From Raillietiella orientalis (taxonomy: Eukaryota), in NCBI GenBank assembly GCA_036172245.1, contig JAYWIR010000017.1:1736001-1800000 (forward strand): 64,000 bases of DNA, written 5' to 3'. The translations under genes were made by a program, and so were the position numbers. This document shows, in pieces, positions 24,840-56,135 of this stretch. Numbering within the stretch: position 1 is the stretch's first letter; the number at the start of each line of letters is the position of its first letter. The notes beneath the pieces were generated by a model that was given only the letters and a program-made list of their open reading frames with translations, had not been told where the DNA came from and did no database searches.

Positions 24840-26700
24840 CACAAGGAACCAGAGTTGTGAGCGTGCGGTATTTCGCAGAATGAATGCTCGGATTTGAGAA
24901 GCACGATTTCCTGACATGAATCTCCAGGGTAACTTCCTCAGTTGATTCAAGTACCTGGTTGAAAGAATTCTTTACATCGAGACTGAAACCGAAGCGAAGC
25001 TGGAGCAGAGAAGAAATTACATTAAGGGAAACCCTACTGCTGGTGTTTTTTCGATGCCGAAGGTAGCAGCCGTAGCTGGGTTTCAACAGCTGAATGGATG
25101 AGTTAATCGAGATGCCTAATTCCCATTCCCCTTGTCTACGTCTAAATACTTGGAGGAAAGTTTTGTCTGAATGACAACAAGTTTAAAATCCTTTGGGTCT
25201 AATGAATTAGTGGCAAAACAGCAATCAAGCACCCATTTTGTGTTCGAAATATCCACTCTGAACGATTTCTTTGTCTGCACACAGCTTGCCGTATCCTACC
25301 TCCCTCAATGAGCCATTTCCCTTCAAATATGCAGAAGATAATAGAAGTTATCAGGATAATATTGCAGATGAGCAGATGCTCATTTGGAGACATGGATATG
25401 GATAGAGCAATCTGAATTTACCGATTCATTCCATCGCATCCTTACATTCTGGCTTTGTAGATACACATTTATTTGTCCACATATTGGTCATTTCAGAGTA
25501 TGAACAAAAAGCTCGTCTCTGCATCATTAAGATAGGTGATACATACAACGAGAAAGAAACTAATAACACTCTTAGAAGAAAACTGTATAGAGAGCGTAAC
25601 GATGCCGTGCTTTTGAATATCCAGTTTCCGTGCCTCTTCTGCTATGTTTCGAACATCTTTCCCAACTTTGCTATTATTTGTTCCGGAACCACAGGGATTT
25701 CGTTCCACTAAGGATCGTCCGTTAGCTTGCATTGCTTTATGGATCTGAGAATCATTCATCTTGCACATTACAAGATGGGAAGATCTCCACACGAATGCAT
25801 CGATCGTTCGGGTGCTCCCGTTGGCGGGAACATCTCACGAGCACGGGCTAGCGCGTCCGTGAAGATGCGGACGAGGGAACGGCCCCTTCGCGACGACCTC
25901 GGAACGGGTCTTTTCCTGGCGACCGTCTGCTTTGCGGACGGGGCGTGGCAAGCCGGTCGGCGGATGCTCGAAGGGCGGGAATTCGCGTAACCCAGCATGG
26001 TCTTTTCCGTCGGCGCCCAGGATCCGAACCAGATCCCGAGGACTTCCGTGGCGTGCGGCGAGCAGGAGGAGAAGAGCCAGCGCGCGTTCGCCAGATCGTC
26101 TGGCGAGAAGTCCGAGTACCGAGCGGTCCCCCCCTCTGCGTTCCGAAGGGAAGACCCCAGGCAAGTCAAGACCGGACTTTCGTCAGGGGACAAAGTGCAC
26201 TTGGTCGGCGGGTGCGGCGCATAGGCGCCCCCTCCATTCCCCACTCCACGCCTACTGGAGCAACTGGAACAGGTCGGCCGTCCGCTACGCAGCTGCCGAT
26301 TGCACGACGCGCAACCGCACCACGTTGCGAAATCGGCGCGCGCCTCTTCGGCGGAGTGGGGGCGGGGCTGGTCCGCGGGCCGCGCGCCTGCCGACCCGGG
26401 GCGCTTCGTGGAGCGTCGCGAACCGGAAGGCACGTTGGCCGCCCTCTTCGTGGCGAGCCGCTTGCTCTCGCCCGATCGGAAAACGCCCGTAGGCATGCTT
26501 GGCGCCGAAAGACAGCGGCTACAGAACGTGCCATCCGGATCGACGCCTCGCCCTTCCTCTTTGCACCAACAAAACAGTCTTCGTCTTCACGCCACTTCCA
26601 GTCTAGGTGGTGGTAGTAGGCTCCTGCACCTTTCCTTCCTGCGGTGTTGCGAGCGGAAGTGGTTGTCACCTCGTCGACAACCGGACGGCAGATGATTTAG
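24840..26700 (-). mobile_element. Degenerate L1/Tx1-like RT fossil in intron 1, antisense to the receptor
   Basis: Collinear decayed RT motifs: RDAPRSAPGR (LD..KAFDR-like), CVADGRP...GVGNGGGAYAP (VNG...GVRQGCPLSP-like), YSDFSPDD (YADD-like), EVLGIWFG (KxLGxxF). The AT-rich continuation below 25800 is less certain. Confidence 0.5.
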
Positions 26701-26801
26701 GAGGAGAGAAAGGAAGGAAAGCAAAGCGACTGGGTCTGACCTTGAAAGAAAGACATTTGGCATTTGAAAACGTCATTCATGTATGCAAATTTTTCCTCCA
26801 G

Positions 26802-26902
26802 GTCACAAAAATGCTACTTATTGTTGTTATTCTGTTCGCAATTTGTTGGTTCCCGCTCCAGCTTTACCACGTCCTTCAGGAAATCCTTCCTTCCATCAAC
26901 GA
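26802..26902 (+). CDS. Lkr: Leucokinin receptor-like GPCR, coding exon 2 (TM6, ECL3)
   Basis: Acceptor ttttcctccag| at 26801. Encodes VTKMLLIVVILFAICWFPLQLYHVLQEILPSIN (CWxP motif). 101 nt, donor GA|GTAAGT at 26903, phase 2. Confidence 0.93.
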
Positions 26903-27049
26903 GTAAGTACCAGGGCGTGGCATTTCCTGCACGAGATTGGTACGGATGCAGTGCATGCGTATCCTCTTGCGGCGACCGCGAACACTCGTTGCCTCCCCTT
27001 GACCTCCCCCTCGGAGACCCTCGGCAAGCGCGAAAGACCACACGCCTCC

Positions 27050-27600
27050 TGGAACACGTGCGCACAGACAAACGGAAAAAGTGCGTGTTAACGGGAAGGA
27101 ATTGCGGCTACGTGTTGCACTCATTGCCGTCGGGAAAGGAGGCGCGCAATCGGCTCCATGGAAAACGACGATGTCGTTCTGGAAGAAGGACCGGGCACGG
27201 GAAAAGGGATGGCGATTTGCCTCTCGGCGTGGAGCACGGTCGCCTCCTCGGAAGGAGATGACGCGACTTCGTCAGCTTTTCGCTCCCCTGGCGAGGCTGC
27301 CAGAAGGAACGGGCACGGGGTGCTCTCCTTGAGTCGTCGCGGGCAGCGGCACGGCTTTCAGCGGTTCTCGGCGGCAGACCGGAATCCCTGCTCCGCCGGC
27401 TTCCAACTTCCCGGGAAGAGCTCGAAAAAAAAAAAAAAAAACAGACCGATCGGCCGGAGGATGCTTTGTCTTTGCTCCGGGTCCACCGGCAACAGTCCGA
27501 TGCTCCCTCCGTGCGACGACTCCAGGACGAGGGTCACGCAGCCCCTCCGTCAACGGGCGGGCGGGCACGCATGCGCGCCCAAGAGCCAGCCTCTTTCGGC
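27050..27600 (-). mobile_element. Possible LINE RT N-terminal fossil in intron 2
   Basis: VAGGPG...VFF...; SRVISFRGGD (RPISL...D-like). Very degenerate and GC-shifted. Confidence 0.3.
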
Positions 27601-29515
27601 GATCTCCGGATCACGCTTTCTCGGAAATGCGCCTCCCGTCAATCGTGTTGGCGCATGCCGAATGCCGCGACCGCTCGCTCTTTCCCTGTTTCGACCGCCT
27701 GGAACGGACACGTTGTTTCCCGTTTCTTCCCCGCACGTGAGACGAATGCTCTTGCGCATCTGCGAATCGCAGCAAGCCGTTGCCACCTAAGCGAGTAATC
27801 CACTTACCTACGTGGAAGGGCCAACTTTCCTGGATGGCGGCCGGAGGGACGGCCCTCCGGCCGCCATCCGATGCGATTCTTTGCCGGCCGACTGGGCTCC
27901 GTGGTGTACGACTGCGACTTGACGTTGGCGGGCAGGCGTCCCTCTCTGCAGACGTGCAGGTCTCGCACCTTCCAGTTCCGCAATCTGGAGCGCTGAGCCC
28001 CGGCTGCCTTTCCGCGTGCCTCTTCCAGTTGGTGCGGGTGGAGCGGAGTCTGCCTTTTCTCCGGCAGGCTGGCAAATCTCCTGCGTGCACTCGCGAGTCG
28101 CAAGCGTCTGCCGTGTCATGGCTCCAGGCAGGTGTCGTCTCCTGCTCTTCCGGTTTCTTCGTTTCCTTCGCTCTCGCGGCCAGCGCGCTCGAGCATCGCA
28201 GTACTGGCTCTGGCACACTCGAAGGAGGTGTCCGCTGCCGGCAACTTGTGCATCCTCCTTCTTCTTCAACTTCTCCCGCTTCTGCCTGGCAGAAGCGGTT
28301 CGCAAAAGGTGCGGATGCTCCGTTCGATATCCCAGCAACGAGGCTTTGCGGATTTGCGAGGAGCTGGAATTCGCGCGCGCGCTATCAAAGAAGGGAATGC
28401 AGGATCCAAAGAAACTCGCCAAAGTCCAGGTTCGGCTAGCCGGTTGCATTCGGTGGACAGATTAAGGATGGGAGACTGCAGCACACCTGAAATGTTTTGT
28501 TTCCTTTTTTTCTTTCCTCTCCCTTCCCAAGCCCTTCTCGGGCACGCTCCTCTGGAAGGAAAGCCCCGTTGGGTTGGTGCTCCCGATCGGAGCAAAGATT
28601 GCCGGAGAGAATGGAGATGGGATGGAAGTTGCAAGAAAGCACAAGGGCTCTTCGGAGAGACGAACTGCTTGCGCTCTGTATCTCTTGCGTAGGGAGGATT
28701 GCCATCGTTCTTCTGCGTGTCCCGACGCTTGTTGCGACCCTCTTCATTCCGATCGAAGCAGCTTCCGGCTTTCCGGGTTCCAATCGTGGCAACAGCTGCT
28801 GCTGCTGCTGCTGTGCTACTGCTCGTGCTTGCAGCAGAAGCGCGCGCACTTGCTGTGATGGTGCGCGCACGCGGTTCGCGCTCGATGACTCCTTCGCGTA
28901 GAAGGAATCGCGGGGCGCACAGTCGAGTCGTTCGAAACGGCCTCGTCCGTGGTAGGGCTCCTTTCCTGATTCGCTTTTCAATGTTTCCTCATACCCGTCT
29001 ATCAACGGCGGGGACACCTGGTAGCTGGTGCCCCAGCAACGCACCGCAGCCGACGCCGCCGGTGTCCACCACTGCTGGTTTCGTTCTGTGCAAAGATGCT
29101 TCCCTGTGAAACAACAACTGCGTACGGGAGGAAGTAGAAGAGTTCGCTTTTGTTTCGGTTTCTCCAGCTGTACATTGCGATTAGCATGCGTATCATCATC
29201 CAATTGTGAGCATTGCATTCGCTGTCCCTATGCGTTCCTTTCATTCGCATTTGAAGTTAATCTTCGTCTTATCTTAGCATGCTTACCGAGCATGCCAGAT
29301 CAAGATGTTCCGCCCCTACCTTTATTTATTTATTTTTTTTTGCTACCTTCTCGCGACTCTTCTGGATAGTGAGTTGCTCGGCTTTGCGCACCTGTAACCG
29401 TACGCGTACCACGCCCTGCGGTCAAAGGATTAATCCGGTTTTTTGCAAGCATTTTTCCTTATAGATGACAACAGGAAGAGGACTGCAGGATTGTATTGAT
29501 TGGTCTTGTTTTCAG

Positions 29516-29606
29516 TTACAGATATATCAATGTCATCTGGTTCTGCTTCCACTGGCTTGCCATGAGCAACAGCTGCTGCAATCCATTCATATATGGCATA
29601 CACAAT
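29516..29606 (+). CDS. Lkr: Leucokinin receptor-like GPCR, coding exon 3 (TM7)
   Basis: Acceptor tcttgttttcag| at 29515. The first base completes GA+T = Asp, then YRYINVIWFCFHWLAMSNSCCNPFIYGIHN (NPxxY). 91 nt, donor |GTAAGT at 29607, phase 0. Confidence 0.93.
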
Positions 29607-32600
29607 GTAAGTTGCGAGAAAGAAAAGTTTGAATTCTGTGAGATAGCAGCCAAGCGCCCAGAAATGCAAAGAATTTGGGGCAGGTATGCGCAAAGTTGAG
29701 TACAAACTCGGATGACGTACCATGCGCAAAGTTCCGAATGCTTCAAACAAGCCGCATGCGCCGACTCTCAGCGAATTAGTGTGGCAGATGCTCACGTATT
29801 GTGCCTCATCAAGAATGCTTTGGTACATAAATCTCTTTCGTAGGTGGAGAGATTGATGCTCGCATCAATCGTGCGATAAATAGTTAACCAAGAAACCGAA
29901 ATGCACTCCGGAACTTCCGAATGCCCAAAGCGTGATTCGATGGACTGCAATTGCGCCACCGCGCAGGCAACCAACCACCCTTTTTGTCAACAAAAAATTG
30001 CACAGTCTCCCTCGTGTGCGGAATCGGCATCCGGCACAACATGCGCCGCATTCGTATCGCCTCAGGGCCGTTCCGTCGTCCCTTCTTGCTCACTTTCTTC
30101 ATTCCGGATCGACAGTCGACGTTCGGAGTTTTCTTTGCGTGCCACTTGGCCATCGTTGGACGTTGCGCCTTGGAAGGGCCGCTTCTAAGCACACCTTTGC
30201 TTCCTAGCCCGAACGACGACGAATGGTTGCCGTCCATGCGGGCTCGCGTCCGAGGAGGCTTCCGTTGTTCATCGATCATCAAAGGTCACTCGTTGAACCT
30301 CATGGAAGAATGCGCATGTACCCTGCTGTTGGAGACTGCTTCCTGCTTTGAGTTTTTACCTCGACTTTTCATCTCCCAGTGCAATGTCCTCGTAGCTTCG
30401 CGCCGTTGTCTACATTCCTCTTCCTCTTATCCTGCCTGATTTCGCTTGATCACATCCATCTTCTTGCCTCGTAATACCGTGACTTTGTAAATGCTCGGCG
30501 ACAACTCCGATTCTCATTGATGTATGTACGTCTCCATCGTTCACGTGCACAGCCATTGCTCTGTTAGAAACTTCCACTCAGTAGGAAGTGAGGAATAGCC
30601 ACCACGCTCTTGGTGGCGCTTTTCCTTCCGGATCAGCGTTTGGAGAGTTGCAATCCTCCCGGAAGCTTCCGCTCGGCCCGATTCAAGCCTTCAACTCGAT
30701 CTTGCTCCTGATGAGCAAGATCAGCTGCGCGTATTGTACTGATCTGCTGGCATGTTACGAGTCCTTCTTTTCTCTTTCTTTTCCCTTAGATACCTCGATA
30801 CTCCGCTCCACGTCGTGCAACAAAACATGTCAGCTACGAAATTGAAGGCAAAAACAACAGCAACAACTGTTCGTTCGATGAATCAACTTGAGGAACGCAC
30901 GCATACACACACACGCATGAAGGATCTCTCTGATCGTGGAAAAGAGTTCCACCGTTTCGCTACCGTTATGAGAAAGAAGGCATCTTCTCTCTTCCTTATT
31001 AACGGTTCCCTGTAAAGGACCCCTGCAATGTTCCATTTTAAAATTCCATTCCCGATTCGGGTGAAGATTCGAGCCAAAATAGAGACCGCGCTTGCCACTT
31101 TCCATGCAGTTTCCCTGAACTCCTCCCGCGAGCTTCCTACTTTGGAAGGAAGAAGGCCTCATTTACTATTCGCCCTCTCACTATCCTCCACAGGTGGATC
31201 GGAGATTCTCGTCTCCTTCGACCTTGCTCAAACGGTCATCCTGATCAAAGCAAGGAGTGCAACTCATTTTTCCTTTGCTTTGATTGCTTTCCATCGTGGT
31301 CTTCTCCACCTCCGTCCTTGCATTGTGCCTCCTGCTCTTCCGAGATTTCCGTTCACTCTGCAGATTTCCAACAGCGACAATGCCTTCCATCATGTACCAC
31401 GACCAGAGCAACTACCGCCACATGTAGTCCCACAACTGAACGCTTTCCTGCAATGCTTCCCAAATCGCACAGGTGTTCATCATATTGTGCTAACGTGGAC
31501 CTAAGCATGCTGCATCTTTCCAACTCCACTAGAGTTGGAATTCTTCGGCAGGAATCCTCTCCATCCTTCAGATGACGTGAATTATCATCTCGATAGATGA
31601 GTTCGCTGTACCGAAGGCGTTTTTCTACTAATCGTCGATGCGACGTACGAATCCGTTAGTCCCTCACTCCTACATGGGTTGCATTCAGGCAAACTCCACT
31701 TTATGCTGGTGTCCCACTCCCCATTTTCCACACACCTTTCTGCACTTCTCTGATGGAAGCGTTTCGAGTCGAAGAACGGGGATCTCTAAGAATCTGCAAA
31801 CAGCAACCCCATTCCCAAGTTACATCTTGCCACGATGACAAACAACCAAAGGCCCTTTGGGCTTCCGAAGTGTGAGGACACGGTGTTCAGCAACACTGCT
31901 TATTGGCAGTCTCTTGATCTGCTTTCTCCGGAAAAACAATTCATTCGCGAGCGCACCGATGATCGTTTCTCTTCTTCCTTGTGTTTCATCTTTTGCGCGT
32001 TCGCATTCCTCAGAGTACCTCTCACTCCTTTACCTCAAACGCACTCCAAAGGGTGGAGAAACTCCTAGAAGCAGGAAGCAGCCTACGCGCCCTTCCGCTT
32101 CTTCGAATGGAAGACCCAGCACAACAAACTTCTGCTTCCCGAATCGCCCCCCATCGTGCGTCTTCTTCCTGCATGCGATGACGGTGAGGAAATGCGTTCT
32201 TCGTTTTGCGCTGTTGGCCGCCAGCCACACACCGATCCGCAACAGGACTTCATCGCGGCATGCACCGCTCCACTTCGGAAAACGACGTGCGCTACTCGCC
32301 GGCCTTTCCACGTGATGATAATTCTTCTCATTCTATCCATGCCCAAAGCATGTTGTTGCGTGCACTTCCGGTGCTGCCAATCTCTGAACGAGGCACGCTT
32401 ACCATTCTTCCATCGCAGCAGACTTGGATTGCAAACGAGTCGCTCGGCAACGGCGCAAGTCGTACCTCAACATTCCTCTTTTCGTGCCAGCAGATTTTCG
32501 GACTCGGTGCACGCGTTTCCAGAGCTACAGACCCCACTTTGCCTTCTGCACGGAGTTCACGTTGCTCCGAAGGGACTGGAAACACGAACATGCCGGAGGG

Positions 32601-35400
32601 CATAGGAGTTTACCGGCTCGGCATCCGGCGCACACGTTCGGAAATGCGAGCGTGTCACGCATTCCTCATTCCTTGACTTGGTTTTCAGCGCACGCCGTGC
32701 ATCGGCACGAGATGGACACGGGAATGGAGCACTGCGTGTGCTGTGCCCACGCGGCTGGCTGCGGAGGGGAGTGCACGGGGAGCGACGAACGCTGCTCGTG
32801 TCGCGCGGACCACGCACCAGGGAAGGCAAGCTACTTGATTTTCGGACAGTGAAAGTAGAAGCGGGATATCTCCGGCAGCATATTATCCGGAGCGAAGAAG
32901 TCACGATCCGCCTGAATGCCTTCCGGCTCGTCAACAGACGTCATCCTCTTTACGGGCGTGCGAAATGCACGTTCCCGTGAGCAAGCACTGCGTGAAAGGG
33001 ACCTTCGTTGAGAGGTGAGGCTAAGCGGGCGGAGAGTTTGCACACCACGAAAGAAGGAAGGAAGGTGGAATGTGAAGGAAGGATTTGCAAGGAAGATGGA
33101 ACGTGTAAGTGACTGGAAGATTACTTCTGGATGTCCGCGGAGCTGAAAAGTGCCTGACTGCGTGATTTTTTTTTCCCTCCATCGAAAGCGTGCAATTGTG
33201 GTGAACTTGTAATGCAGAAAGGAAGAATCGAGGGCGGGCGCCCAACGAAGCAGGAAGAAGCAAAGGGCAATCCAGATGCGATGCTGAAGCTGTAAGTTCG
33301 AGAGGGATCGCGGTGCTTCTTGTCTGCATGCATCTCCTAATTATGGAAGAAATTAAGATGATTGAAACTTGTTGCACGATCATCGAAAGAGCAGTCACGA
33401 ATCGGTGGACATGGAAACGCTGAACACTGAGGCGATCTTCTATGATCATCTCCTCGTTCCCATGGAATTACTGGTCCGTAATCCACGTTGATTTTTTTTT
33501 GTTTTTGTTTGCAATGGTTCGAACGGGCTGATTGCATCCCCTGCAAACGAAATCAAAGGGAAGAGTGCTCTCTGAAACCCAAATATCCGTGCGAGCAACA
33601 AGGACCGGAAAACGATCCGTGTCTGGAGATGTTGCCATCCAGTGAAGAAACGAGATGCGGAGAGAGACTGCCTGTTGTCAGGACGGGAAGAAGAACGCGA
33701 CAAGGGATTCTTGTGAGAGGAGTCTGCCTGCTACGAGGCTGCAGATTAGGCTGCACTTTAGACTTTTCGTCATGCGTTTTTTCCTTTTCTTCTCCACGTT
33801 ACCTGGACACCTTTCTCGTGCTATGCTGTCCGGGGTCAGCGCTGCGCTTTTGCTGCGCAGCTTGGTTGACGCTTTCCAGCTCTCCTTGTCATGCTTGGTG
33901 CAGAGTATCTACTACATAGCAACACTTGCAGGCGCGGATGGTGGTGAAGAGAACTTGGACGGATAGGAAGGGCTTCCCACTGCAAAGTCAGCATGAAACG
34001 GAATCCAGTAGCCCTGACCAAACGAGCCAATGCGCCTTGAGATTTTCTTGGAAAACGCAGCAAGGCGTGGAGGCAACAAGCGTTGCTTCGATGCCCGTGG
34101 CCCAAGTGCCACGCTGGCTCGTCTTGTTTCCGATCCTGGTGAACGCATCCTGGGCCAACATGAATTGACAGCCAGCCAGGTGCCCGGTTTGCTGCACTTT
34201 GCCGAAGCAATCGAAACGCATACGCTGCGGGTGCGCGCGGTATGTTCCGCTGCAAGCCGCAAAGCGGAAACGCGTGTTGAGGTGGATCTTTCGTTCTCTG
34301 CAAACGAATCGTTGCATCACCTCACGGCCTCCTTCTCTGCTTGCACTTCACCTTCGAATGTTCCACGTTCGCTTTTCCTTCGATTTCCGGGTGGTTTCTC
34401 TGAACCGCTGTCAGCGAGAAAATGGGAAGCAGATGGATGATGTTTTACCGGGTTCGAGAGGGACTGGTTTTCAAGAGAGTTGGCCACCCTAGTCGAACAT
34501 AGGGAGATCCAGTGCTCCTGATCCGCAAACAAGACAGGAATGACTTTTTCCCGGTGCGCCAAGAGCGATGCAGGAGATTTCTTTCGAAAGCCTTGCTCGG
34601 ATGCCCGTCAAGTGGAGAAACGGCTTGGCAAACGCGTCCTCTCCGTTCGCGTGCAAACCGAGAATTCTCTTTGCTCTCCCATGGCCACGGGTGCGAAGCG
34701 ATTCGGGAAATACAGGGGTTTCTGCCAGCGGGCAAAGAGCTACCTTAGCGGACGCGAGTGCAGGAATGCGCTACGGGACTCCTTTCGTTTCGGGAAAGGC
34801 GTTTTCAGTGTCCTCCTTACACTCCGAACGTGCTTACGTGGAACTGTCACCTGGACGCATGGGGGTCTTTGGCTTTCGCGTACACCTCGAAAGCGTTCGA
34901 ACGTGCACTCCGGATGGCAACTGTTGGAGAGGGATAGGCAGAAGTTTCCACAGCGGAAAGGAGCCGTTTGCAAGTCGATCCAGTCGCCTGCTGATCGCAA
35001 AGCGTGTGGTTCGAAAACGTTTCGTCTTCCGGTTGGAATTCACTTGCCGTTGTGGAACTCGCCGGCATGACTGCGAAACGGAAGTCCAGCGACGGGCATC
35101 AGTTGCGACAAAAAAAAATGGTTTTTCCCTTTTTTGCACACCGCTCGGCTTGAGAGAACGGACGATACTTTTTTCACGTTTTGAATGGATGAAGAGCGCT
35201 GAGACAAACGGATGGGTTGAGCGACGAGGCGAAAGGCACTCGGGAGGCTGCATTCGCAGCAGGCGTTCGCTCCATTGCTTCCTGCACTTTTTTTCTTCAA
35301 TTCTTTGGTGATCTCCAAAGACGGTTGAAAACGAAAATGCAGCAATGAAGCGACCAATGGATCCATGTGAGAAGTGCTAAACTTGTGTTTCTGTTGATAG

Positions 35401-35595
35401 GATAATTTCCGACGGGAGTTTGGGTTCAGACTTGATTGTTGCTGTTGGTTTCTGAAACGCCGAAGAGACATGTCTGATTCCAGAAGCAGGACCAGATCTC
35501 AGAGGTCAAGAAGGAACAGGTCCCTCAATAAGATGGTGCTTGTCTCAAGTGAGAACAGCACCGGAATCAGAAACCTGAGTTTGAAAATGCAGTAG
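35401..35595 (+). CDS. Lkr: Leucokinin receptor-like GPCR, terminal coding exon 4 (helix 8 and C-tail)
   Basis: Not in the ORF track. Acceptor gctaaacttgtgtttctgttgatag| at 35400, phase 0. Translates DNFRREFGFRLDCCCWFLKRRRDMSDSRSRTRSQRSRRNRSLNKMVLVSSENSTGIRNLSLKMQ then TAG (35593-35595). FRREF is the expected helix-8 motif and is followed by a cysteine cluster. The spliced CDS is 1116 nt = 371 aa plus stop. Confidence 0.85.
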   Translation, partial: DNFRREFGFRLDCCCWFLKRRRDMSDSRSRTRSQRSRRNRSLNKMVLVSSENSTGIRNLSLKMQ

Positions 35596-35699
35596 CATCT
35601 CTGTAAACCCTGCATCTTGCCCAGAATGCCAGAGAATATCGAAGTGGGCCATAGACGATAGACGGATTAGGCTTCAGGCTGATGGATGCCTTTCAGACT

Positions 35700-36700
35700 G
35701 CTTTTCCAACAGATTCCCTAGACATCACAATTCCAAAGATGGAAGGGAGTCCGGACACTGCTTGCTTGACGAAGAGGCAGATCCGGAGTCGCGTGCCCCC
35801 AAGCTGTGCGCTTAGAGTGCCAGACAGTGATGCATCTTCCTCCAAGCACCGGAATGCACTCGATGCCTTGTCGTACTTGTGGTGCGCACCTTGTCGAGGC
35901 GCGAATCGAGGCGCGCAAAGGGCAAATTGCGAGGTCTTCCAATGATTTCGACTGCGACATATTCCGACATGACGTCCTTTCTCTTCAAAGTCAGTAAAGA
36001 TTGGCTCTCCACTCGGGAGGAGTCTGCATTCCCACTCCGTTCCTTACGTTTTGCCACCGCAGCACCTCCACCTTCCTCGCCAGTTCACCATTTCTCATTA
36101 GTCGACGAGAAACTTTCTTGATCTGGACAGCTTTCCCCATCCGATTGGACATCCTGAACTTTATCCAATTTTCCATTTTATCGAACTGCTTCCTCTTCAA
36201 GATACTCGATGAGAAATGGAATGCGGATGTAGGTAAACATCAAAGCACTTTCTTTGAAATTTGGAAATTTTGGAGTTCTTGACGACGCTTACTTGGCAAT
36301 CTGCTTTTTTCCTTTTCTCCAGCACCCTGTGTGCACAGAGCGGTTCGCTTACCGGCTCTCGTGCATTTCCAGGCCGAGTCTCCACTTTCCAGAAATCATC
36401 CATTCTGTTCGACAGCCGCGACAGTTCCAGTTCTGACGTCCAGGATTTCTCCTTTCGTCTTGCTTGCATTTCGAAACACCAAAAAACAGCCGTGCTCTTG
36501 TTGTTGGACGATCATCACACCATGACTATCGATGATTCGGTGCTTTGCGAATCAGGTTGACAAGCCGAATGGAAACTATCCTTCATCCACTTTGCAGATA
36601 CCCCCAGGAAAGATTTCGAGGACCTGCATTCTGTGAATGACTTTCGCAGGGATGGTGAAGAGACGTTATCGCATTCTAGGAAGGAAACGATTCGACGAAA
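35700..36700 (-). mobile_element. Degenerate RTE-like LINE reverse transcriptase fossil just downstream of the receptor stop codon
   Basis: LSRLSNRMDDFWKVETRPGNAREPVSEPL (L..L...IW..E..P..W..., RT start), KQFDKMENWIKFRMSNRMG (KAFD.V.W......L..MG) and VRNGVG (GVRQG-like) in collinear order. Confidence 0.5.
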
Positions 36701-39700
36701 AAAAAAGGCAAGTTTGCTCCTACGCAGAAAGGAAGCCCGTGGCAGCAGCATTGGGAACGGAAAAGGAAGGGGGAAGCAAGTATGCTTCCGGTCTGTGAAG
36801 AAATGCATACTTTGGACGAGGTGGAGACTTCCGGAAGCGGTCCGCTTCGATCAGGAAAATACTTTCAAGTTTTCTGGTTCTGCTGCTTTGCGTCACCTTC
36901 TTCTTTCTCGACGTTCGAACCCGCTGCTGCCAACACATCAGCCTTGCTGCATGCTGCAGCACCCTTGCCAAAAACAAGACCTGATTTCCGACTGGGAGAG
37001 ATCCGCATACCGGCTGCTGTCGCATTCAAATTGTGGTTTACATGCCGAAATCACTTTTTCTTGCGATACTCAAGACGCTGCCGTTCCGCGGAAAGCAAGA
37101 ATCGGCTCTCAGCAAGATACGTGCAGCAGCCACGGAGGCCCCAAACTGTTTCCTGTTTCTCTGCTCCCCTGTCATTTTGGAAAGTTCCATTCGCTGATGG
37201 TTAGGAGTCGCAAAAAGAGCGTGACGGAAGGCAAAATTCGTGAAGGTGATGCCGGAAACAGATTGGTTCTTGCATGTTTGTTTCAGCAGACGCCAATTTC
37301 AGAGTCGTGTTCTGCCGATGTGTTCTCCACGTGTTTGTTCTCGTTGCTGCTTTCATATTCTGTGCCTCTTAGCTTTCCCAAGGCAACCTTAACTCGAATG
37401 GGGCTCAATCGAAAGCTGCTGGTTGCAGCCAAAGAGCTAGATGGATCCGAAAGAAATCGCGCGTTCCACGTGATTGTGTGTCATCGACATCAAGCATCTT
37501 TGAATAAAATTTGGGTTTTTTGATCTGGAAAGAATAGAAAAAAAAATATTGTACATCTTGCGACTTTTCCTTTTTTGAACGCACAGGTAGTGCTTACGTC
37601 ACCCTCGTTGACGTCCACTCCACTATGAACATTCGCTCGAACGTGGCTGAATAGTCTGAATGCAAATTCAGACATCCAGCATCGCGAAGGAAGAGGAACG
37701 CGAGAGCAATTGCGATTCCTGCTCGCAGTCAAGTGGTTCTGGCGAAATTCTTTCGTGGTCGCAATGGGTAGTCGATCCTGCCGCAGCCAGCAGTTTCCGG
37801 ATTCGGAATTTCCCTAGAACTCTCCTGGCTGGCTTTGGAAGCGAGACGCTCTTCAGCGAAGACCAGGTCAGAAACGGCAGGAAAAGTGAACTTTTTCAGA
37901 TGATCCAACGGAGACAGGGAGGGCAAAGAATTCCAGGTGAAGCATTCCACAAGGATTAGGCTGAGAAGCACTTCATTAGGCTCTTTCGATTTGCGATCTT
38001 GGAGAACTCGCAGTCCCCAGCGACAAATGAAAGAGTCGGAAAAAGGCGGATGCCTAATTGGCTGGATATGTTGGTCGCATGCATCAACAGAAGGGCAAAA
38101 CAAAAAGCGCTGCTGTGGATCAGATCTTCTTATGGTGCTAAATTTGTGAAGCGAGCTCGTCGAAACGTTCTCGGATCCAACGGGTGTTCATTTCTAATGA
38201 CTACGTGGTGGACACGTTCAACTCCGCACCTTTGTTCCCTTCCGTTCAGGTGGATTGCGCTGTTTTGCCGAGCTTTCCATTCGGTCTTGGAGGCAGCAAA
38301 GACCGATCCGAAGCGTGGGATCTTTTCAAAGTCTCCCGATCCTTCCTGAGGGGAGTTCGAGCATCGATCTCTCTGACTACTGATCTGCTGCGAAATTGTC
38401 CTTCAGCAGGTAACGGCTTATCCGGAGGCACGGCTTTCTCAGAGTCTTCAGCATAATCGACGGCTGCTCTCGCCAGTGTTTTAACAGATTTTCTGCCTCT
38501 GCCGCACGAATTGTGCCCACTGAGCCATCGTGGGCAAAGATGAATCAAAGGGAGCTCGCACGAAACAGATTCGTGGGCTGAGTCCTGTCAGATCAGCAAA
38601 GCGGCTGCGAGTCATTCTATCGCCTCGGTGCTTGGCACGCGAACAAACGTGGAGGCTTGGACGATCCGTCGGCTGACGGGGGTAACGTCAACGAGCAAAT
38701 TTCCATTGAATCCCTTCAACCATCGCACGGCTGCCTTCTCTTGCGTGCTCTTCAGCACGATGGTTGTTGATATCGTGTCGATATCGTGCATTCGCCATTC
38801 CGCTGCAAAAACAGCCGGCTGAAAATGCGAGATGGGGGGGCGCCGAGTAGAGCAGAGCACGTTCCGTTCGTTTTTCGGATCCCGAAGGGCAAATTTTACG
38901 TCTTCTTCGCTTTCTCTGAATGGTGCCGAACTTTGCACGTTCGCGAGTGCTTCCTTGCAAAGATAAGCCCTTGCGAAAACTTACCAAGTTGCTTTGTTTC
39001 TTCCAAGAGGAAAAAACTGTTGCTCCACGTAGAAGCAGGCCTTCGAAACTCATCATTCTTTAAAGGCTTGGACTTCATTTTCCCATTCATTTCGCTTGGA
39101 CGCGTGTTGCACCGCCCTATTCGTTTCAAATTTCCATCGATTCCCACTCTTGCAAAACGTTCGTCTTTCTTCTTCCTAGCGTCAAAGAGTGTGGGCATTG
39201 GAAAAGCGAATAGATGCAGCCCGCGAAGCGGAACCATGGAACCGGAGGTCCTTTGGCAAGCTACTGCATCGACTGGAGTAAGAAACGGCGTTTGTCTAAT
39301 CTCCTTCTGCAGCATCACCGAACGGAATTGCACATAGCTCCTTTTCTCGTCTTCATTCTCCGCCCGTTCCACAACAGTCGGTTGAAAACTGGGATTCCAG
39401 AAAGTGAGTGGAAATTGAACACCGCGATGTACTGGTGGTTGGACACCGCATGCTATCCAACGCTCTTGCTGCCTCGTTTGCGTTACGATTGCCATTCCCA
39501 TGTGAACGCCAATTTCAGAGCGAGTGCCATGCTGTGCTTCCTGCTTCAGTTCATGTTATGGGTTTGTACGGGAGAGAAGCAACTGAAACGAATGGCTGCT
39601 CACCTGAAACGAATGATCCAGTTATGTTCGGAAAAGGGTGAGGAAGCAAACCAAGACGCGACGTTGCTATGGGATCGCGCTCTGACACAAAACGGAGAAT

Positions 39701-42700
39701 TGCGAAGCAAGCGTAGGGAAGCGGTGGGCAAAATTCTTCTTCTTGCCAACTCTTCCCCTACATTACGCCCGAGTGCTGCTGATCTAAAGGAGATGCGGCT
39801 GTTGGCAGTTGGGGCTACGAGTCGGCCTTCGATACCGAGTTGCCGCTGCGAGCGGAAAGTTGCTATCACTTCTCACCGGGAATCGGTGGGCTGCTGAAAC
39901 CTCCCTTCCCGAAACCTGTGCTCGCTGAAATGGACATGCGCCTTGCCATCCTGCTTTTCTTCTCTTTTACCTTTTCTTTGCTGCTTTGCGTGCAAACATT
40001 GGCCAGATCATCAGGTCCTCCTCGTTGTCTGCCAGCGTTTCAGTCGAGACTGCGGATTCGAACCACGCGAAATCACTGCCGATCCGTCGGACTATTTTTT
40101 GCAAGTGTGAGGCGTTCTTCTTGGGAAAAGGTGCGTACAACCACGTTTTCAGGCTTCAATGGACGCCTCCATCAAAACGGAAACAAGCGGTATTCCTGTG
40201 TGTCTTTTGGTGTCCCAACAAAATTATATTCCAAACGCATTCTGCAAATGCACTTTCCTTAGGGGAAGAAAATCGCCAGTTTCTGGAAAGTCTTTTGCCT
40301 TTGTCTCCTACCCGAGTGAATGTCGACATTCCTTTGTCAGTGCTCAGTGGTCCCTCTTTGGGATGACTGCGAGAAGTCATGCGATCTGCAAATCCATGTC
40401 GACGAGTTAGCAGGTTCACGTTTTCTTGTTTCCTGACGGTCGAAAAGCTCCATCCTCTTTCTCGAGAGTTTAAGTGCACTCCCCTCTCATTGGATTTCCA
40501 TCGCGATGATTGATCTGGATCAGAAAGCTCTGAGGAAGAAGAAAATCAACGAGCCCAGTACGACACGACACGGCCTTCTGGGTTCGAGCTCTTTTCCGTT
40601 TGAGGCGACGATCGCGTTTGCTTGCGCCGTGTCGCGCCTGATCCGCGCCGTACCAATCCTTGTACGATGATTGCAAACCGAAACGATAAACTGGAAGGTT
40701 CCAGTGCTTTGCGGACTCGTTTGGGTGCGGGATGAACTTGCAAGCAGAGTGTTCGCTCACCATGGCTTCTTCGTTTGGCTTGCGACAAGGCGCACTTGTC
40801 GGCAGCAGCACCCCTTCTTTCTGCAGGAAGACGATTGCAGGGTGGCGCTTTGAGCCACATGTGCGCAAAGGATAAAGGCAGACAGGGTGGATGAGGAGAA
40901 TGCTTGGCAGTGGCAAAAGCGGAAGATTGGTTAACTTATGGATGCGCATCCATTGCCTATGCGATACTGAGCAAGAGCGAATTTTTGCGGAATACAAAAA
41001 GGAAACGTACTTATTTCTTGTATCAAACTTGATCAGCTTCTTCGGAAATCGGTATCCCACGTGAAACGCTGCAGTTGAATGCCGACGGAAAGGCTACACA
41101 TGAGCAGTGCTCAAGATCGACAACGAATGGAGGAGTTTGTGCTTGCAGACGGAAATGAATAGGAAGGGATCGATGCCGGACTTTGATGCGGATTCTTGAA
41201 GCACTGCAATCACTGCCGGGAATTTATCCTTCTGGGTTCGAGATGCTTCCTTATGAGCTTTTGCACTAAATCATGCACAAGCGCTGTAGGAAGGGATGGT
41301 AGAGGAGCCTCCGTTGACATCCCCCAGAATGAATATACTGGAAACGTTCAAATGCTCGATTCTCGCACAAAGCCGGTGGCCTGCTTTCCTCTGATCGATG
41401 ACTCACTTGAGAAACCCGGACTCCGTTAGCCGACACTCAACGGGAAGGGCAAACGCGTCGCATGTCAAAAGTATCTCTTCTTGGCTGCGGAATAAAGCGC
41501 AATCCCTAATGGGTCCGCCGCCGCCGCCGTTCGGCTCATGGCAGCGGAAAAGGAAGCAGCGAAGCTGCAATGGAAGGGATGGCTTCCCACAATGACACCT
41601 GTAGACACATTACCGCATTCTTAAGAAGGCCATCCTAAGGTCACGGAATGCGGGGAGCGTATCGAGGCATGGGATGGCTGTCGAAAATCGAGGGATGCAG
41701 CCGGGAAAAGCTGGAACACTGGGAAGACGCAGGGGCGTTTCGTTCTTCTTCCTTGGGTTCCGCTTTCTCCATTTCGTAGTTCTCCGGACGCTGGCAGCAG
41801 GAGAATCTCAATGACCTGATCTTTTGTCATTTGGAGACCAGCACACGGAGCACGAAGCGTTCGATGGTTGCAAAGCGTGCACACGTGTTCTGCAGACGTG
41901 ACTGTGTGCCACGTTTGCCTCAAGCATTCCGAATCCCCTTCAGGAATTCGTGAGACGCTTCAACTTCAAGACTGGGATCGCATTGGACGAGAGCTCTCTT
42001 CGTGTCGTGTGACCACTGGGAAAGGGAATTTTTGCGCGTGGCGAATGCTTTCCGCCGTGCTTCTCGCAACTCAGCAAGACGCGAGCAAATCCATCCTTCT
42101 TTTGGAAGAGCACGAACAAAAAGTGCACAGTGATGGACGTGGAAACGTGGTTTAGCACGTGCTTCTGTTCCGCAGCAACTGCACGCTGCGGAACGTCATC
42201 CCGTGGCTTCGGGCACTAGAGTCCATGGACTGCAATGATGATGCGGGGCCGCTGGACAAACGGAGGAGTGATTTCTCTCCAGATCAACTCCGGAATCCGA
42301 GGGGAGGACAAGAAGCGTGCAGGTTCCTGAGGCTGCTCCGCCCAGCGCACGTCGCCGACTCCGATTTGCGGGGCATCACGGGTTCGCTCTCGTCTTCACA
42401 AGAGGAAGCGGGATCACAATCGAACACCTCGAAGCCAGGTGAGTATTGGAAACGGGATAGTGCGGAGGCGCTGTTGCGTTTCCGGATGCTGCTCTTCTCC
42501 AAGAGGACGACGCTGATCAGCCGATGCTTCTACTTTTCCAGGACTTCTCTTAGGCCTGCTTCAGGAACGCGTGGAAGCGAGCTCTCTGCCCGGTTGGATG
42601 CCGATTCTCGATCCGGGATGCGTGCACTTTCGGAGGGGTTGTGCTCGGCGGATCGGTTTTCGGGAGACGCGACTCGATTCACCCCGCACGACGAGGGAGG

Positions 42701-43399
42701 AAGCATCACTTGGACGTAGGATAGCATCTTGAAGAGACTTTGTCAGCAAAGTGCTGCGAAAGAGAACGCCACGCTTCTGGCATGAACCGAGTTCTCCTAC
42801 CTACGAGATTGCAGGTTTCACCTTCTTTTGTTTGCATTTTTTCCAGCCGCTTTCCGGATGCAGCTGATTGGTGGCTGACGGGAAGCAGCAGACCTCACGC
42901 TGGACGGGCTTCTCCATTCGCCGTCATCAAGTTGTCAACGCAAATTGCGTTACGACGGAGGCTACATTTTCGGAAGTGGAGCAGGAACCGCGCGATGCGG
43001 GCAAACGCGACGGTCGGTGGCGGCCATGCGACGGAACGGAAGAGAAAGCTCGGGAAGGGATGGGCAGGGAAGACTGGCTGGTGCTCCCCGCGCGGGCGTA
43101 GCCAGCGGGTCGCCGTCGCGGCCGCTCACGTCCCAGCAGTGGTTCTCCGATCCTTCCGCACGCGGAGCGCGTGGCTCTTGTCGTGCGTGTGATCCCCGGG
43201 ATGCGGCTCCAATCCTCCGGGAGCGAGCTGTTTCGCGCCCTCAAGAGCCATCTGCTGGCGTGGCGCCACCCTCGCGCCGATTGCTTGCGCGCGCGTCCAG
43301 TGGGTGCTGCTTTTCCACGGGAGCTCACGTCGCAGTTTCCTCGAGCGCGAGATGCGTTTCTCAGCGGGTGCGGAACGCACACTGCACTCCTTGCACGTC

Positions 43400-45170
43400 G
43401 GTCCTTCCCGGGGATGCGACATGCGGGAGCAAACGCACCATCCGGGATCCGGTGGAATGCGGAGTTCGGGGCGCCTCGGAGATCGGCAGGCAAGGAGGGA
43501 GATGGGAGGAAGGAAGCGTGTGCGACCGTTCCTTCCTTCTCGCCGTTCTTACCTCAGCGTCTCCATTTAGGCAGAGGGCAGAGTGCGGTCGCAGTGGGAG
43601 GAAGCTCGAGGCACGGAACGGTGCGCCCGGAGGCCAGTCGCTGCGGTGGTCGCGACCGCACGTTCTTCCGTCTCTTCTCTGGCGTTGCGGGAGAGCGAGG
43701 ATGCGCTCCGCAGCCGGGAGGAAGGGGTGAGCACCTGGCTCGCCACGACGCCAGGCTCACGTGGCGGAGGATGGAGCGCGTGCAGCTGCCCCTTCTCGCA
43801 GTGCGAATCCCTCTCCTCCGGCTCGGCACTTGAAAAACGGGAAAGCCAGCAAGCACCGGGTGCGGCGGTTGGAAGTTTCTCGGGTCGGGACGCGAGCGCG
43901 GGCTGCAAGCGAACCTCCCGTGCAGCGATTCGGATGCTTGCAGCGTTGGCTGGCGAGTCTGCAAGATATGCCACCGAAATTTCGGGCGCTGACGCAGAGG
44001 TGGCATGCGTGGGGGACGCGGATCGCGCGAATGGACTGCCTCGGCGGGAAGTCTGTTTGTCTCCTTGGCTTGGTCTCTCTCCCGCCCGTTTCCCCGCCGC
44101 GTTTTGGGCGCTTCCATGGGCGAACCTTCGCTCTTGGCAAGAGCGGCTGTAGGTTGGGGGATAGACCACGGGGATTTCATACGATATTGCGAAATGTGAC
44201 CGGCTGTTGTTCTTGAAAGTCTGAGGGATAGGATTGGAAGTTGGTTTGGGATTCTGATCCACTGTTTTGATCAATAGCGTGGAGCATGGTTTCCTCTGTC
44301 CGTCTGCACCCTCTAACCGAATGATGATTTCCCCTTTAGTGAAGTTTCGGTTGTCAGTCTGATCGGGACTCTCCCATCCAGTGAAGGCAAACCTCCATCT
44401 GAATGCCCTTCTGTGTTGATTTCTTGAGAAGGCTACTGAAAATAGTAATTCAACAATGAGACGATAAAGTAAGTATTTATAATGAGTGGTATGTTATTAT
44501 GGAACCATGTGGCGCCCCCCATCTGAGCCCTTCTGTGTATCAACGTCTGAGAAGGGCTTCTTTGAAGTCCTATAATAGCAGCTGCTCGCTCATCGAGAAA
44601 ATAGGTAGCCATAATTGTCTTGGACCAAAATGGATGGTCCGCTCCATTTTTTCTCCTCCGAAGGTAGCCCGGGAAAGGATCCACTACTAGGAATTTCTTC
44701 TACAGAGGGAGCCTGCAAGGAAACCGCTACTGTTTTCTCCTCCCCTGAGGAGAACCCCGAAGGGACGCTTCCGAAATTCAGAAGGGCTCTGCTTCCCTGA
44801 AGGGATCGGATCACTTCTCTGAACTTTCTGGAGAGGTGGCAACACACCTACTCCATCAGTACGACTTGAAGGGTCCCCACATAATGGAGAGTCTGCCCAC
44901 CTTTGCGCAACCGGAGGGGAACTCTCACTCCCTGATTTCTGGAAGGACCCGAAGGTCGGTCGACTCCCATTGTCCCGGCCCTCATCCAGTTTGAACAGCT
45001 ACCAATGAGAATGAAAGGAGACCAATGCAGCGTCATCTTGCGGGAGGAACTCGAACCCACGACGCACTGAGCCGATCCTTTTCGGAGCATTTCGAATCTG
45101 CGGCGCTCGGTGGTGCCACGTGCGGAGACCACCGTAACCACACGGCCTCCGGAGCGGGCTTTTTTCACGA
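43400..45170 (-). mobile_element. Degenerate L1/Tx1-like LINE 5' part (ORF1 plus endonuclease)
   Basis: VPLRLRKGGQTLHYVGT...CC (ORF1 P..I..G.....Y.GQ...C..C-like) at ~44840-44940. EIPVVYPPTYSRSCQERRF (APE xxVYAP....ER..F-like) at ~44120-44185. Confidence 0.45.
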
Positions 45171-55600: not shown

Positions 55601-56015
55601 TAGCTTATGTAGATCGTCTTGATGACTTCTAACATGTTAAGTTTTAAATAGTGAGGAAACATCAGATTTAGGGTCTATAATTAAGAACACAAGAATAGGC
55701 AAAGTATGAAGTACAGCTTGAATGCAGTAGAAAAGAAACACATGATACCTTGAGAGAATTAATCTGAGATTTCATATATTGGAAATAATCTAAGTTTCTT
55801 GGCTTTTTAATTCGAAACAGTGGTCATGAATGTCAAAAAATTTCAATTTTCTTTGAGAATGAAGATGAAGAAGCGTAGAGGTCGAAATGTTCAGTTAGTC
55901 TCCTTGAAGAAAATCTTTGGCTGCTTGAAAAAATGTGCTTTACCTTTGATATGTACCTTCATTCTTCTGGCATCTGTGAACAGATGAACAGGTGTACTTT
56001 GTCTCAAAACGGCTT

Positions 56016-56135
56016 TCATTTATTTGATGAATGATCTTGTTTCGATTTATTTTATTCTTGTGTAGCTGATGATGGATAAAGTATTCCAAGTAAACGGCTT
56101 AATTTCTATCATCAGCACATGCAGCTATTTCATAA
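56016..56135. repeat. 120-bp direct repeat, copy 1 (partner 57926-58045)
   Basis: TCATTTATTTGATGAATGATCTTG...GCAGCTATTTCATAA. 116/120 identical to copy 2. Confidence 0.97.

What the first reader, a model, noticed from the sequence alone, without database searches (positions are those of the whole stretch)
25800..44170. Sharply bounded ~18-kb GC/CpG-rich domain written over a host gene, with extreme peaks at both ends
Seen: AT-rich DNA (spot counts 28-37% GC) switches within ~100-200 bp at ~25.8 kb to very GC-rich DNA (up to 85% in a 60-nt line). It stays elevated and CpG-rich with few TA dinucleotides through the middle (~48% in a spot count), peaks again at ~42.7-44.2 kb, then drops. Poly-A/T runs typical of the AT-rich introns survive inside it (e.g. 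27425-27441, 35109-35118), and three correctly spliced exons of one gene lie within it. Inference: this is native intronic/intergenic DNA rewritten in place by A/T-to-G/C substitutions, as expected from intense GC-biased gene conversion at recombination or repair hotspots, or from an unusual local mutational process. A two-peaked, sub-genic island this strong would be unusual in an invertebrate. Caveat: LINE fossils here are intrinsically fairly GC-rich (see 1-13 kb), which accounts for part of the peaks.
Basis: partly seen in the sequence, partly recalled or inferred. Interest (0 to 1): 0.7.

Follow-up and report, generated by a model that had tools for sequence, protein, structure and literature searches.

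The report
Sharp-edged GC-rich island inside receptor gene
An 18-kb stretch covering the back half of a neuropeptide-receptor gene in an unidentified arthropod has a base composition very unlike its surroundings, and the gene's silent sites share it, so the DNA seems to have been recomposed where it lies, though the process responsible could not be tested.

Summary
GC steps from 0.41 to 0.67 at 25,809 and from 0.66 to 0.43 at 44,174, each placed within 45 bp or less. The 18.4 kb between averages 0.54 GC, against 0.37-0.39 in the flanks.

The block also has its own dinucleotide signature: TpA o/e 0.35 and CpG o/e 1.07, against 0.63-0.65 and 0.66-0.81 outside. This holds in GC-matched 200-bp windows.

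It is unique, non-coding DNA. Among 253 ORFs covering about 70% of six-frame space, no transposon domain was found, and there are no repeats above shuffled controls.

It starts inside intron 1 of a 371-aa RYamide-receptor-like GPCR and holds exons 2-4. GC3 is 0.57 in those exons and 0.40 in exon 1 (Mantel-Haenszel OR 2.2, p=0.0017). Amino-acid usage shifts the same way.

This favours a regional process acting in place over stacked GC-rich insertions. GC-biased gene conversion is the leading candidate but is untested: no genome, relatives or reads were available. The step-like edges and the GC maxima at both ends fit a simple hotspot model poorly. Interest is moderate.

The parts
25809..44174 (.). 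GC/CpG-rich, TpA-poor compositional domain (18.4 kb; GC 0.54)
   Evidence: Change points. Composition. Dinucleotide signature.
25809..29000 (.). Left GC peak. It covers the end of intron 1, exon 2 and most of intron 2. GC is 0.60 overall and up to 0.73 per 200 bp.
   Evidence: TpA o/e 0.31, CpG o/e 1.13.
42900..44174 (.). Right GC peak, about 7.3-8.6 kb downstream of the receptor stop codon. GC is 0.62-0.70 per 200 bp.
   Evidence: TpA o/e 0.21 and CpG o/e 1.12 for 42,801-44,170.
21692..22420 (+). Coding exon 1 of the RYamide-receptor-like GPCR (TM1-TM5). It lies outside the domain in AT-rich DNA. GC3 is 0.40.
   Evidence: Pfam 7tm_1, E 9.9e-40. 55-59% identity to arthropod RYamide or tachykinin-type receptors. 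GC3.
26802..26902 (+). Coding exon 2 (TM6), inside the domain. GC is 0.43, with GC-rich intron starting about 10 nt after the donor site.
   Evidence: Pfam 7tm_1, tblastn, sequence, gene model.
29516..29606 (+). Coding exon 3 (TM7, NPFIY motif), inside the domain in an 800-bp dip of lower GC.
   Evidence: Pfam 7tm_1, tblastn, gene model, GC profile.
35401..35595 (+). Coding exon 4 (C-terminal tail, stop codon included), inside the domain.
   Evidence: The DNFRREF motif after an AG acceptor matches EKFKREF in orthologues. The spliced frame is open for 371 aa.
27425..27441 (+). A17 homopolymer inside 60% GC DNA.
   Evidence: No flanking target-site duplication was found.
30000..32500 (.). Pyrimidine-rich stretch on the + strand (GC skew -0.15 to -0.26). 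It carries the same TpA/CpG signature as the rest of the domain.
27832..27869 (.). 38-bp GC-rich palindrome, the only self-match inside the domain.

Best explanation
The block is native DNA of this locus: part of intron 1, introns 2-3, exons 2-4 and 8.6 kb of 3' flank of an RYamide-receptor-like gene. Over a long period it has evolved under a regional substitution regime different from its neighbours. That regime moves all weakly constrained sites along the TpA to CpA/TpG to CpG path, raising GC and CpG and removing TpA. Protein-constrained positions and splice signals stay AT-richer.

The most likely driver is GC-biased gene conversion in a recombination-prone interval that is unmethylated in the germline, possibly with its strongest activity near the two ends.

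Shown: the step-edged domain, its uniform signature, the shift at synonymous sites and in amino-acid usage, and the lack of transposon hallmarks.

Inferred: that substitutions (not insertions) made it, the direction of change, and the role of recombination or methylation.
For: 1. Silent sites track the local compartment on both sides of the edge.
- GC3 is 0.40 in exon 1, whose adjoining part of intron 1 has GC 0.39.
- GC3 is 0.57 in exons 2-4, whose introns have GC 0.52-0.58.
- Stratified by codon family, the Mantel-Haenszel OR is 2.2, p=0.0017.

2. Amino-acid usage shifts too, measured against 60 orthologues.
- Exon 1 is AT-shifted: GARP 0.18 against 0.24+-0.02, and FYMINK 0.36 against 0.30+-0.02.
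- Exons 2-3 shift the other way: FYMINK 0.41 against 0.47+-0.03.

3. One signature covers the whole block.
- Left, middle and right parts differ from each other by delta* 41-62, but from the flanks by 84-155.
- In GC-matched 200-bp windows the domain has TpA 0.34-0.39 and CpG 0.96-1.07. Flanks and block 1 have TpA 0.52-0.61 and CpG 0.71-0.85.
- The stretch with strong strand skew at 30-32.5 kb shares the signature, so pieces of differing make-up carry one overprint.

4. There are no transposon hallmarks.
- 3 of 253 ORFs of 48 aa or more had any Pfam hit. Two are the receptor exons and one is a sub-threshold Gliadin match.
- No direct or inverted repeat of 30 nt or more was found.
- Relaxed blastn gives best hits of 33.1 bits, against shuffled maxima of 28.4-34.7.
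- There is no period-3 signal.

5. The host's A/T runs occur at 0.38 per kb inside, against 0.55-0.73 per kb in the flanks.

6. The gene is intact across the left edge, and both halves are closest to the same decapod proteins.
Against: 1. Both edges are steps placed within 45 bp or less, and GC is highest right at the edges, declining only inwards. Conversion tracts around a hotspot should give peaks that fall off on both sides.

2. GC4 alone rises from 0.37 to 0.50, but this is not significant (p=0.19). The exon sample is small (129 codons).

3. AT-richer dips of 0.3-0.8 kb surround exons 3 and 4. These could be native intron left between insertions, although they do carry the domain's signature.

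4. No outgroup, polymorphism, recombination or methylation data exist here, so an excess of weak-to-strong changes, and even the direction of change, are unshown.

5. Copy number elsewhere in the genome could not be checked.
Confidence: 0.45

Rival explanations
1. Regional regime without conversion. The interval is a long germline-unmethylated, CpG-island-like domain, or it has a local mutation or repair bias, bounded by chromatin borders. Composition follows the chromatin state rather than recombination.
For: The step-like edges fit a bounded chromatin state better than a hotspot does. CpG o/e is 1.07 inside and 0.66-0.81 outside, with CpA/TpG excess outside at 1.14-1.21. The same window holds a 2.6-kb CpG desert with sharp edges, 9 CpG against about 75 expected, so locally targeted CpG loss occurs in this genome.
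Against: Flank CpG depletion is mild. I estimate, without a call to support it, that such loss can account for only a few GC points, not 15-25. TpA depletion to 0.14-0.35 is not explained by lack of methylation. Methylation could not be measured.
Confidence: 0.17
2. Stack of inserted GC-rich DNA. Old, non-autonomous or fully decayed transposons, or other insertions, filled intron 1's end, introns 2-3 and the 3' flank. The AT-richer dips around the exons are what remains of the original short introns.
For: The edges are sharp. AT-richer dips surround the exons. Strand skew changes sign between sub-blocks, as for fragments in different orientations. The A17 run could be a retroposon tail. GC-rich DNA with a 99%-identical 1.45-kb inverted repeat exists nearby, so GC-rich duplicated or mobile DNA occurs in this genome.
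Against: This needs at least four independent insertions that share one odd signature yet have no sequence similarity to each other or to block 1. No transposon domain was found in 253 ORFs. No LTR, TIR or target-site duplication was found. Insertions do not explain GC3 of 0.57 in exons 2-4. The dips are not flank-like in signature.
Confidence: 0.2
3. Segment of single foreign context. The whole 18.4 kb, exons 2-4 included, evolved elsewhere, for example in a paralogous receptor locus in a GC-rich, high-recombination compartment. It was then placed here by ectopic recombination, a long conversion tract or a rearrangement with a breakpoint in intron 1.
For: There are two step-like edges and one uniform signature. 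Arthropods carry several paralogues of this receptor.
Against: The gene is intact and in phase across the edge. Both halves are closest to the same decapod proteins, and species with two or more paralogues show no split preference. Nothing explains the GC maxima at both ends. No second copy could be looked for.
Confidence: 0.1
4. Artefact: mis-assembly, or contaminant or foreign (bacterial or viral) DNA joined to host sequence.
For: Composition and signature differ sharply from the flanks. No reads were available to check the joins.
Against: Exon 1 outside and exons 2-4 inside splice into one complete 7TM receptor of a single phylogenetic affinity. The domain has no prokaryotic or viral protein domains, no match in plasmids for 25,809-29,000, and none in phages for 36,200-44,174.
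Confidence: 0.03

Closest known systems
Runaway GC regions of gerbil genomes, attributed to GC-biased gene conversion (PMC7403616 and PMC7574485; search listing and start of abstract seen)
   Same: Both are local, extreme GC elevation that overrides genes, raises GC at silent sites and shifts amino-acid content. Both are unique sequence rather than repeats.
   Different: The gerbil regions are reported as a large genomic region and as clusters of genes in a mammal. This one is a sub-genic 18 kb in an arthropod, with step-like edges and maxima at both ends. A weak-to-strong substitution excess has been measured in gerbils and not here.
Recombination-linked GC heterogeneity in the honeybee and other insects (PMC4406589 and PMC4305242, listing only; PMC10978632, passages read)
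   Same: The host is an arthropod, the background is AT-rich with GC-richer compartments, and GC3 follows local composition. GC-biased conversion is the proposed cause.
   Different: The insect survey describes GC stretches at about the 100-kb scale and trends with distance from telomeres. It states that it is unclear whether animals other than gerbils and birds have local high-GC peaks driven by conversion (PMC10978632, Introduction). The receptor is at most 59% identical to any insect or crustacean protein found, so the host is none of the surveyed species.
Vertebrate CpG islands and long unmethylated valleys
   Same: GC is above 0.5, CpG o/e is about 1, TpA is depleted and the edges are fairly sharp.
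   Different: This block is 18 kb and is not centred on a promoter. It starts inside an intron and excludes exon 1. The host is an invertebrate and methylation was not measured.
Isochores and compositional domains (PMC2783168 and PMC4393066, listing only)
   Same: It is a discrete domain whose GC differs from both neighbours, and GC3 correlates with flanking GC.
   Different: It is far shorter than classical isochores, which the listed abstract of PMC2783168 describes as megabase-size. It also has its own dinucleotide signature, not only a GC shift.

Membership tests
GC-biased-gene-conversion island (runaway GC / hotspot GC peak) | Local GC rise at non-coding and synonymous sites alike | tested here: met
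   Intron and 3' flank GC is 0.52-0.64. GC3 is 0.57 inside and 0.40 outside, with stratified p=0.0017.
GC-biased-gene-conversion island (runaway GC / hotspot GC peak) | Excess of weak-to-strong over strong-to-weak substitutions against an outgroup | not testable with these tools
   No genome is held. The metagenome loci are only 58-69% identical protein fragments and are not orthologous.
GC-biased-gene-conversion island (runaway GC / hotspot GC peak) | Coincides with high recombination, and weak-to-strong alleles are skewed to high frequency | not testable with these tools
   No sequencing runs were listed. No maps are available.
GC-biased-gene-conversion island (runaway GC / hotspot GC peak) | GC declines gradually on both sides of the hot point | tested here: not met
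   The outer edges are steps placed within 45 bp or less, and the maxima abut the edges.
Transposon-derived block | Transposon protein domains (RT, integrase, transposase, endonuclease) | tested here: not met
   None were found in 253 ORFs of 48 aa or more, about 70% of six-frame space.
Transposon-derived block | Terminal repeats or target-site duplications | tested here: not met
   No repeat of 30 nt or more was found. No target-site duplication flanks the A17 run. Relaxed blastn is at shuffle level.
Transposon-derived block | Multiple copies in the genome | tested here: inconclusive
   The domain is single-copy within the 64-kb window. The whole genome was not available.
CpG island / non-methylated island | GC of 0.5 or more and CpG o/e of 0.6 or more | tested here: met
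   GC is 0.54 and CpG o/e is 1.07.
CpG island / non-methylated island | Unmethylated in the germline and associated with a promoter | not testable with these tools
   No methylation or transcript data are available. The block excludes the gene's first coding exon.
Isochore / compositional domain | Discrete segment whose GC differs from both neighbours, with GC3 tracking it | tested here: met
Isochore / compositional domain | Megabase-size length of classical isochores (as in the listed abstract of PMC2783168) | tested here: not met
   The block is 18.4 kb.
Foreign DNA (bacterial or viral insert) | ORFs or DNA with prokaryotic or viral relatives | tested here: not met
   Pfam finds nothing. There is no plasmid match for 25,809-29,000 and no phage match for 36,200-44,174. 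Host exons lie inside.

The most novel reading that the evidence does not exclude
This is a stable, chromatin-bounded hot interval of GC-biased repair or conversion inside a single arthropod gene. It would be a sub-genic counterpart of the gerbil and bird runaway-GC regions. It has driven introns 15-20 GC points above their own exons and is delimited by two fixed, step-like borders where the activity is strongest.
Probability: 0.3. Interest if true: 0.65.

Novelty: new member of a known kind. Interest (0 to 1): 0.45.

Why it matters
Local GC peaks made by biased gene conversion are well documented in mammals and birds. A recent survey of 150 insect genomes states that it is unclear whether other animals have them (PMC10978632, Introduction).

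This locus offers a compact natural experiment. One intact gene straddles a step-like border between two compositional regimes, so its exons report the regime at silent sites and in amino-acid usage.

If the process is confirmed, the locus would allow three direct tests in an arthropod: fixed recombination or repair hotspots, their borders, and how splicing copes when exons are much AT-richer than their introns.

If the block proves to be ordinary transposon debris, it is of little interest.

Tried and rejected
- Whole genome: none is held.
- Sequencing runs: none was listed and no RNA holder was listed, so reads were never laid.
- Earlier scan notes: nothing for this genome, no look-alike stretches, and word searches returned unrelated archaeal, viral or algal items.
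- Metagenome scan with exon 1: 9 loci, all 58-69% identical fragments of other animals' receptors. They are unusable as orthologues.
I scanned ORFs by reference instead.
- Rfam: 0 hits at gathering score. Two chance-level hits at E 0.5-0.6.
- tRNA scan: 0 genes. My impression that 45.0-45.15 kb is a tRNA-derived SINE is therefore unsupported.
- Tandem repeats: none in the domain.
- Hairpins with stems of 9 nt or more: 6 observed against 1.3+-1.1 simulated in the domain, but similar small excesses occur elsewhere, so this is uninformative.
- Long-ORF excess: 95 ORFs of 100 aa or more against 57-61 in dinucleotide simulations. This looked like hidden coding, but trinucleotide simulations give 88-93. 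The cause is a strand-symmetric TGA/TCA deficit, and there is no period-3 signal. The longest ORF, 320 aa, is reached in 28% of simulations.
- Chimera of two paralogues or two species: both gene halves rank the same decapod proteins on top.
- Organism identity: best protein identity is 59% and 58%. The host is only placed as an arthropod, probably a crustacean outside the sampled decapods.
- No other conserved gene was recognised at 45-64 kb.
- Repeats that might mark young insertions just outside the edges: only weak short pairs were found.
Full report
**Observation**

The window is AT-rich (GC 0.32-0.42 per kb) at 14-25 kb and 45-64 kb. It is GC-rich at 26-44 kb (0.47-0.66) and at 1-13.7 kb (0.41-0.58).

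Likelihood change points place the left edge of the block at 25,809 (support 25,774-25,817; GC 0.41 to 0.67). The right edge is at 44,174 (support 44,147-44,179; GC 0.66 to 0.43).

GC per 200 bp reaches 0.73 near the left edge and 0.70 near the right edge. It lies between 0.40 and 0.63 in the middle, giving a U-shaped profile.

Inside, CpG o/e is 0.89-1.17 and TpA o/e is 0.14-0.61 per kb. In the AT flanks they are 0.12-0.96 and 0.43-0.82.

**The gene**

A rhodopsin-type receptor lies on the + strand.
- Exon 1 is at 21,692-22,420 (Pfam 7tm_1, E 9.9e-40) and sits in AT-rich DNA.
- Exons 2-4 are at 26,802-26,902, 29,516-29,606 and 35,401-35,595, inside the block.
- All borders are AG/GT, the phases agree, and the spliced frame gives a complete 371-aa 7TM protein.

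The nearest proteins are RYamide-receptor or tachykinin-type receptors of decapods and insects, at 55-59% identity. This comes from 213 hits among 3,416 candidates and 105 hits at E of 1e-60 or less. The host is therefore an arthropod absent from the protein collection, probably a crustacean.

The block starts inside intron 1, about 1 kb before exon 2, and ends 8.6 kb after the stop codon.

**What the block is not**

It is not recognisable transposon or gene debris.
- I scanned 150 of the 161 stop-to-stop ORFs of 70 aa or more in 25.7-44.3 kb. Only 2 hit Pfam, and both are receptor exons.
- I then scanned the 11 left-over ORFs plus 92 ORFs of 48-69 aa. One of these 103 had a sub-threshold Gliadin hit at E 0.0075.
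- Together these cover about 70% of six-frame space.

It is not repetitive.
- No repeat of 30 nt or more was found.
- Self-blastn of the window gave 6 non-self pairs. Only a 38-bp palindrome lies in the block, and none links the block to other DNA.
- Relaxed blastn gave best scores of 33.1 bits, within the 28.4-34.7 range of 10 shuffles.

It holds no Rfam family, tRNA or tandem array, and there is no period-3 signal.

There is an excess of long ORFs: 95 of 100 aa or more, against about 59 in dinucleotide simulations. Trinucleotide simulations reproduce it at 88-93. It comes from a strand-symmetric TGA/TCA deficit of 227/238 observed against 344/335 expected, not from coding.

The left peak (25,809-29,000) found no match in plasmids and 36,200-44,174 found none in phages.

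**Evidence for an in-place regional regime**

1. Silent sites follow the compartment.
   - GC3 is 96/243 = 0.40 in exon 1 and 74/129 = 0.57 in exons 2-4 (Fisher p=0.001).
   - These equal the neighbouring non-coding GC of 0.39 and 0.52-0.58.
   - Stratified by codon family, the odds ratio is 2.2, p=0.0017.
   - Four-fold sites alone go from 0.37 to 0.50, which is not significant (p=0.19).
2. Amino-acid usage shifts relative to 60 orthologues.
   - The exon-1 part is shifted towards AT-codon residues: GARP 0.18 against 0.24+-0.02, and FYMINK 0.36 against 0.30+-0.02.
   - Exons 2-3 are shifted the other way: FYMINK 0.41 against 0.47+-0.03.
3. The block has one dinucleotide signature: TpA 0.35, CpG 1.07, AA/TT 1.34.
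   - It is shared by the left, middle and right parts (delta* 41-62 among them).
   - It is unlike both flanks (84-155) and unlike the other GC-rich block (98-126).
   - The two flanks differ from each other by only 39.
4. The signature does not depend on local GC. In GC-matched 200-bp windows, the domain's TpA is 0.34-0.39 and its CpG is 0.96-1.07. Flanks and block 1 have 0.52-0.61 and 0.71-0.85. Even the AT-richest patches of the block are not flank-like.
5. Sub-blocks with opposite strand skew share the signature. One example is 30-32.5 kb, which is pyrimidine-rich on the + strand. This fits one overprint on DNA of mixed make-up.
6. A/T runs of 8 nt or more occur at 0.38 per kb inside (7 runs against 0.24 expected from composition). 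The flanks have 0.55-0.73 per kb.

Insertions would not change exon GC3. They would also need at least four independent arrivals with the same odd signature and no mutual similarity.

**Mechanism**

The differences from the flanks lie along the TpA, CpA/TpG, CpG axis. This is the pattern expected from a fixation or repair bias favouring weak-to-strong transitions. It is the reverse of methylation decay.

Nothing here measures recombination, substitution direction or allele frequencies.

Two features fit a simple hotspot poorly. The outer edges are steps, and GC is highest exactly at those edges. A chromatin-bounded state, or younger AT-rich DNA abutting the block, could produce such edges. I found only weak short repeats outside the edges and cannot decide between these.

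Mild CpG depletion in the flanks, plus a sharply bounded CpG desert at 57,496-60,076 (9 CpG against about 75 expected), suggest that targeted methylation exists in this genome. A methylation-state component is therefore plausible. By my own estimate it is too small to explain 15-25 GC points.

**Rivals**

Stacked GC-rich insertions remain possible (0.20). The grounds are the sharp edges, the dips around exons, the skew mosaic and the A17 run.

A segment moved or converted from a GC-rich paralogous locus (0.10) would explain two steps and one signature. However, both gene halves rank the same decapod proteins highest.

Mis-assembly or contamination (0.03) is unlikely, because one intact gene spans the left edge.

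The 1-13.7 kb block has a host-like signature (TpA 0.54, CpG 0.83). Pfam finds no reverse transcriptase or endonuclease in its scanned ORFs. The scan covered 150 of the 170 ORFs of 70 aa or more lying outside the domain, and found only a hAT dimerisation fragment at 5,323-5,802. That block holds a 1,448-bp inverted repeat at 99% identity. "LINE fossils" are thus not supported, and that block is not a model for the domain.

**Comparison and verdict**

The closest known cases are the runaway-GC regions of gerbils (PMC7403616; listing and abstract start) and recombination-linked GC heterogeneity in honeybee and other insects (PMC4406589, listing; PMC10978632, passages). PMC10978632 notes that local conversion-driven peaks outside gerbils and birds are of uncertain generality.

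This block shares the overriding of a gene, the silent-site shift and the amino-acid shift. It differs in scale, in its step edges, in the U shape, and in having exons 15-20 GC points below their own introns.

I file it as a probable new member of the known kind "local GC-rich compositional domain made in place". The mechanism is unproven and the interest is moderate.

Noticed in passing
window 968-2415 and 10891-12338: A 1,448-bp inverted repeat, 98.96% identical, lies inside the other GC-rich block (1-13,690). No target-site duplication is seen at its outer ends. It may be two inverted copies of an element or a recent inverted duplication.
   Followed up: partly
window 1-13690: This second GC-rich block (GC 0.52) has a host-like dinucleotide signature (TpA 0.54, CpG 0.83), unlike the studied domain. 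Pfam finds no reverse transcriptase or endonuclease domain in its scanned ORFs of 70 aa or more.
   Followed up: partly
window 5323-5802 (-): A hAT-family C-terminal dimerisation domain (E 2.9e-5, above the Pfam cut-off) sits in an AT-rich dip of the first GC-rich block. It is a transposase remnant.
   Followed up: no
window 57496-60076: A sharply bounded CpG desert has 9 CpG where about 75 are expected, at ordinary GC (0.30-0.37), between flanks with CpG o/e of about 0.85. It may be a methylated element or DNA with a different history.
   Followed up: partly
window 26802-26902 and 29516-29606 with flanking introns: Exons 2 and 3 (GC 0.42-0.43) are 15-20 points AT-richer than their own introns (0.58-0.64). 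This is the reverse of the usual exon/intron GC differential, and GC-rich intron begins about 10 nt after the exon 2 donor site.
   Followed up: partly
window 15597-15736: A 35-bp unit is repeated 4 times in tandem (98% matches) upstream of the receptor gene.
   Followed up: no
window 56012-56135 and 57922-58045: A 124-bp direct repeat, 96% identical. One copy lies at the left edge of the CpG desert.
   Followed up: no
window 44225-45342: A small GC bump (0.49-0.57) lies just right of the domain and has a flank-like signature. It is bracketed by a weak 23-nt inverted pair (74% complementary). ARAGORN finds no tRNA there, so a SINE or MITE identity is unproven.
   Followed up: partly
window 25809-44174: TGA/TCA trinucleotides are about one third below the dinucleotide expectation on both strands (227/238 observed against 344/335 expected). 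This inflates ORF lengths in all six frames.
   Followed up: partly
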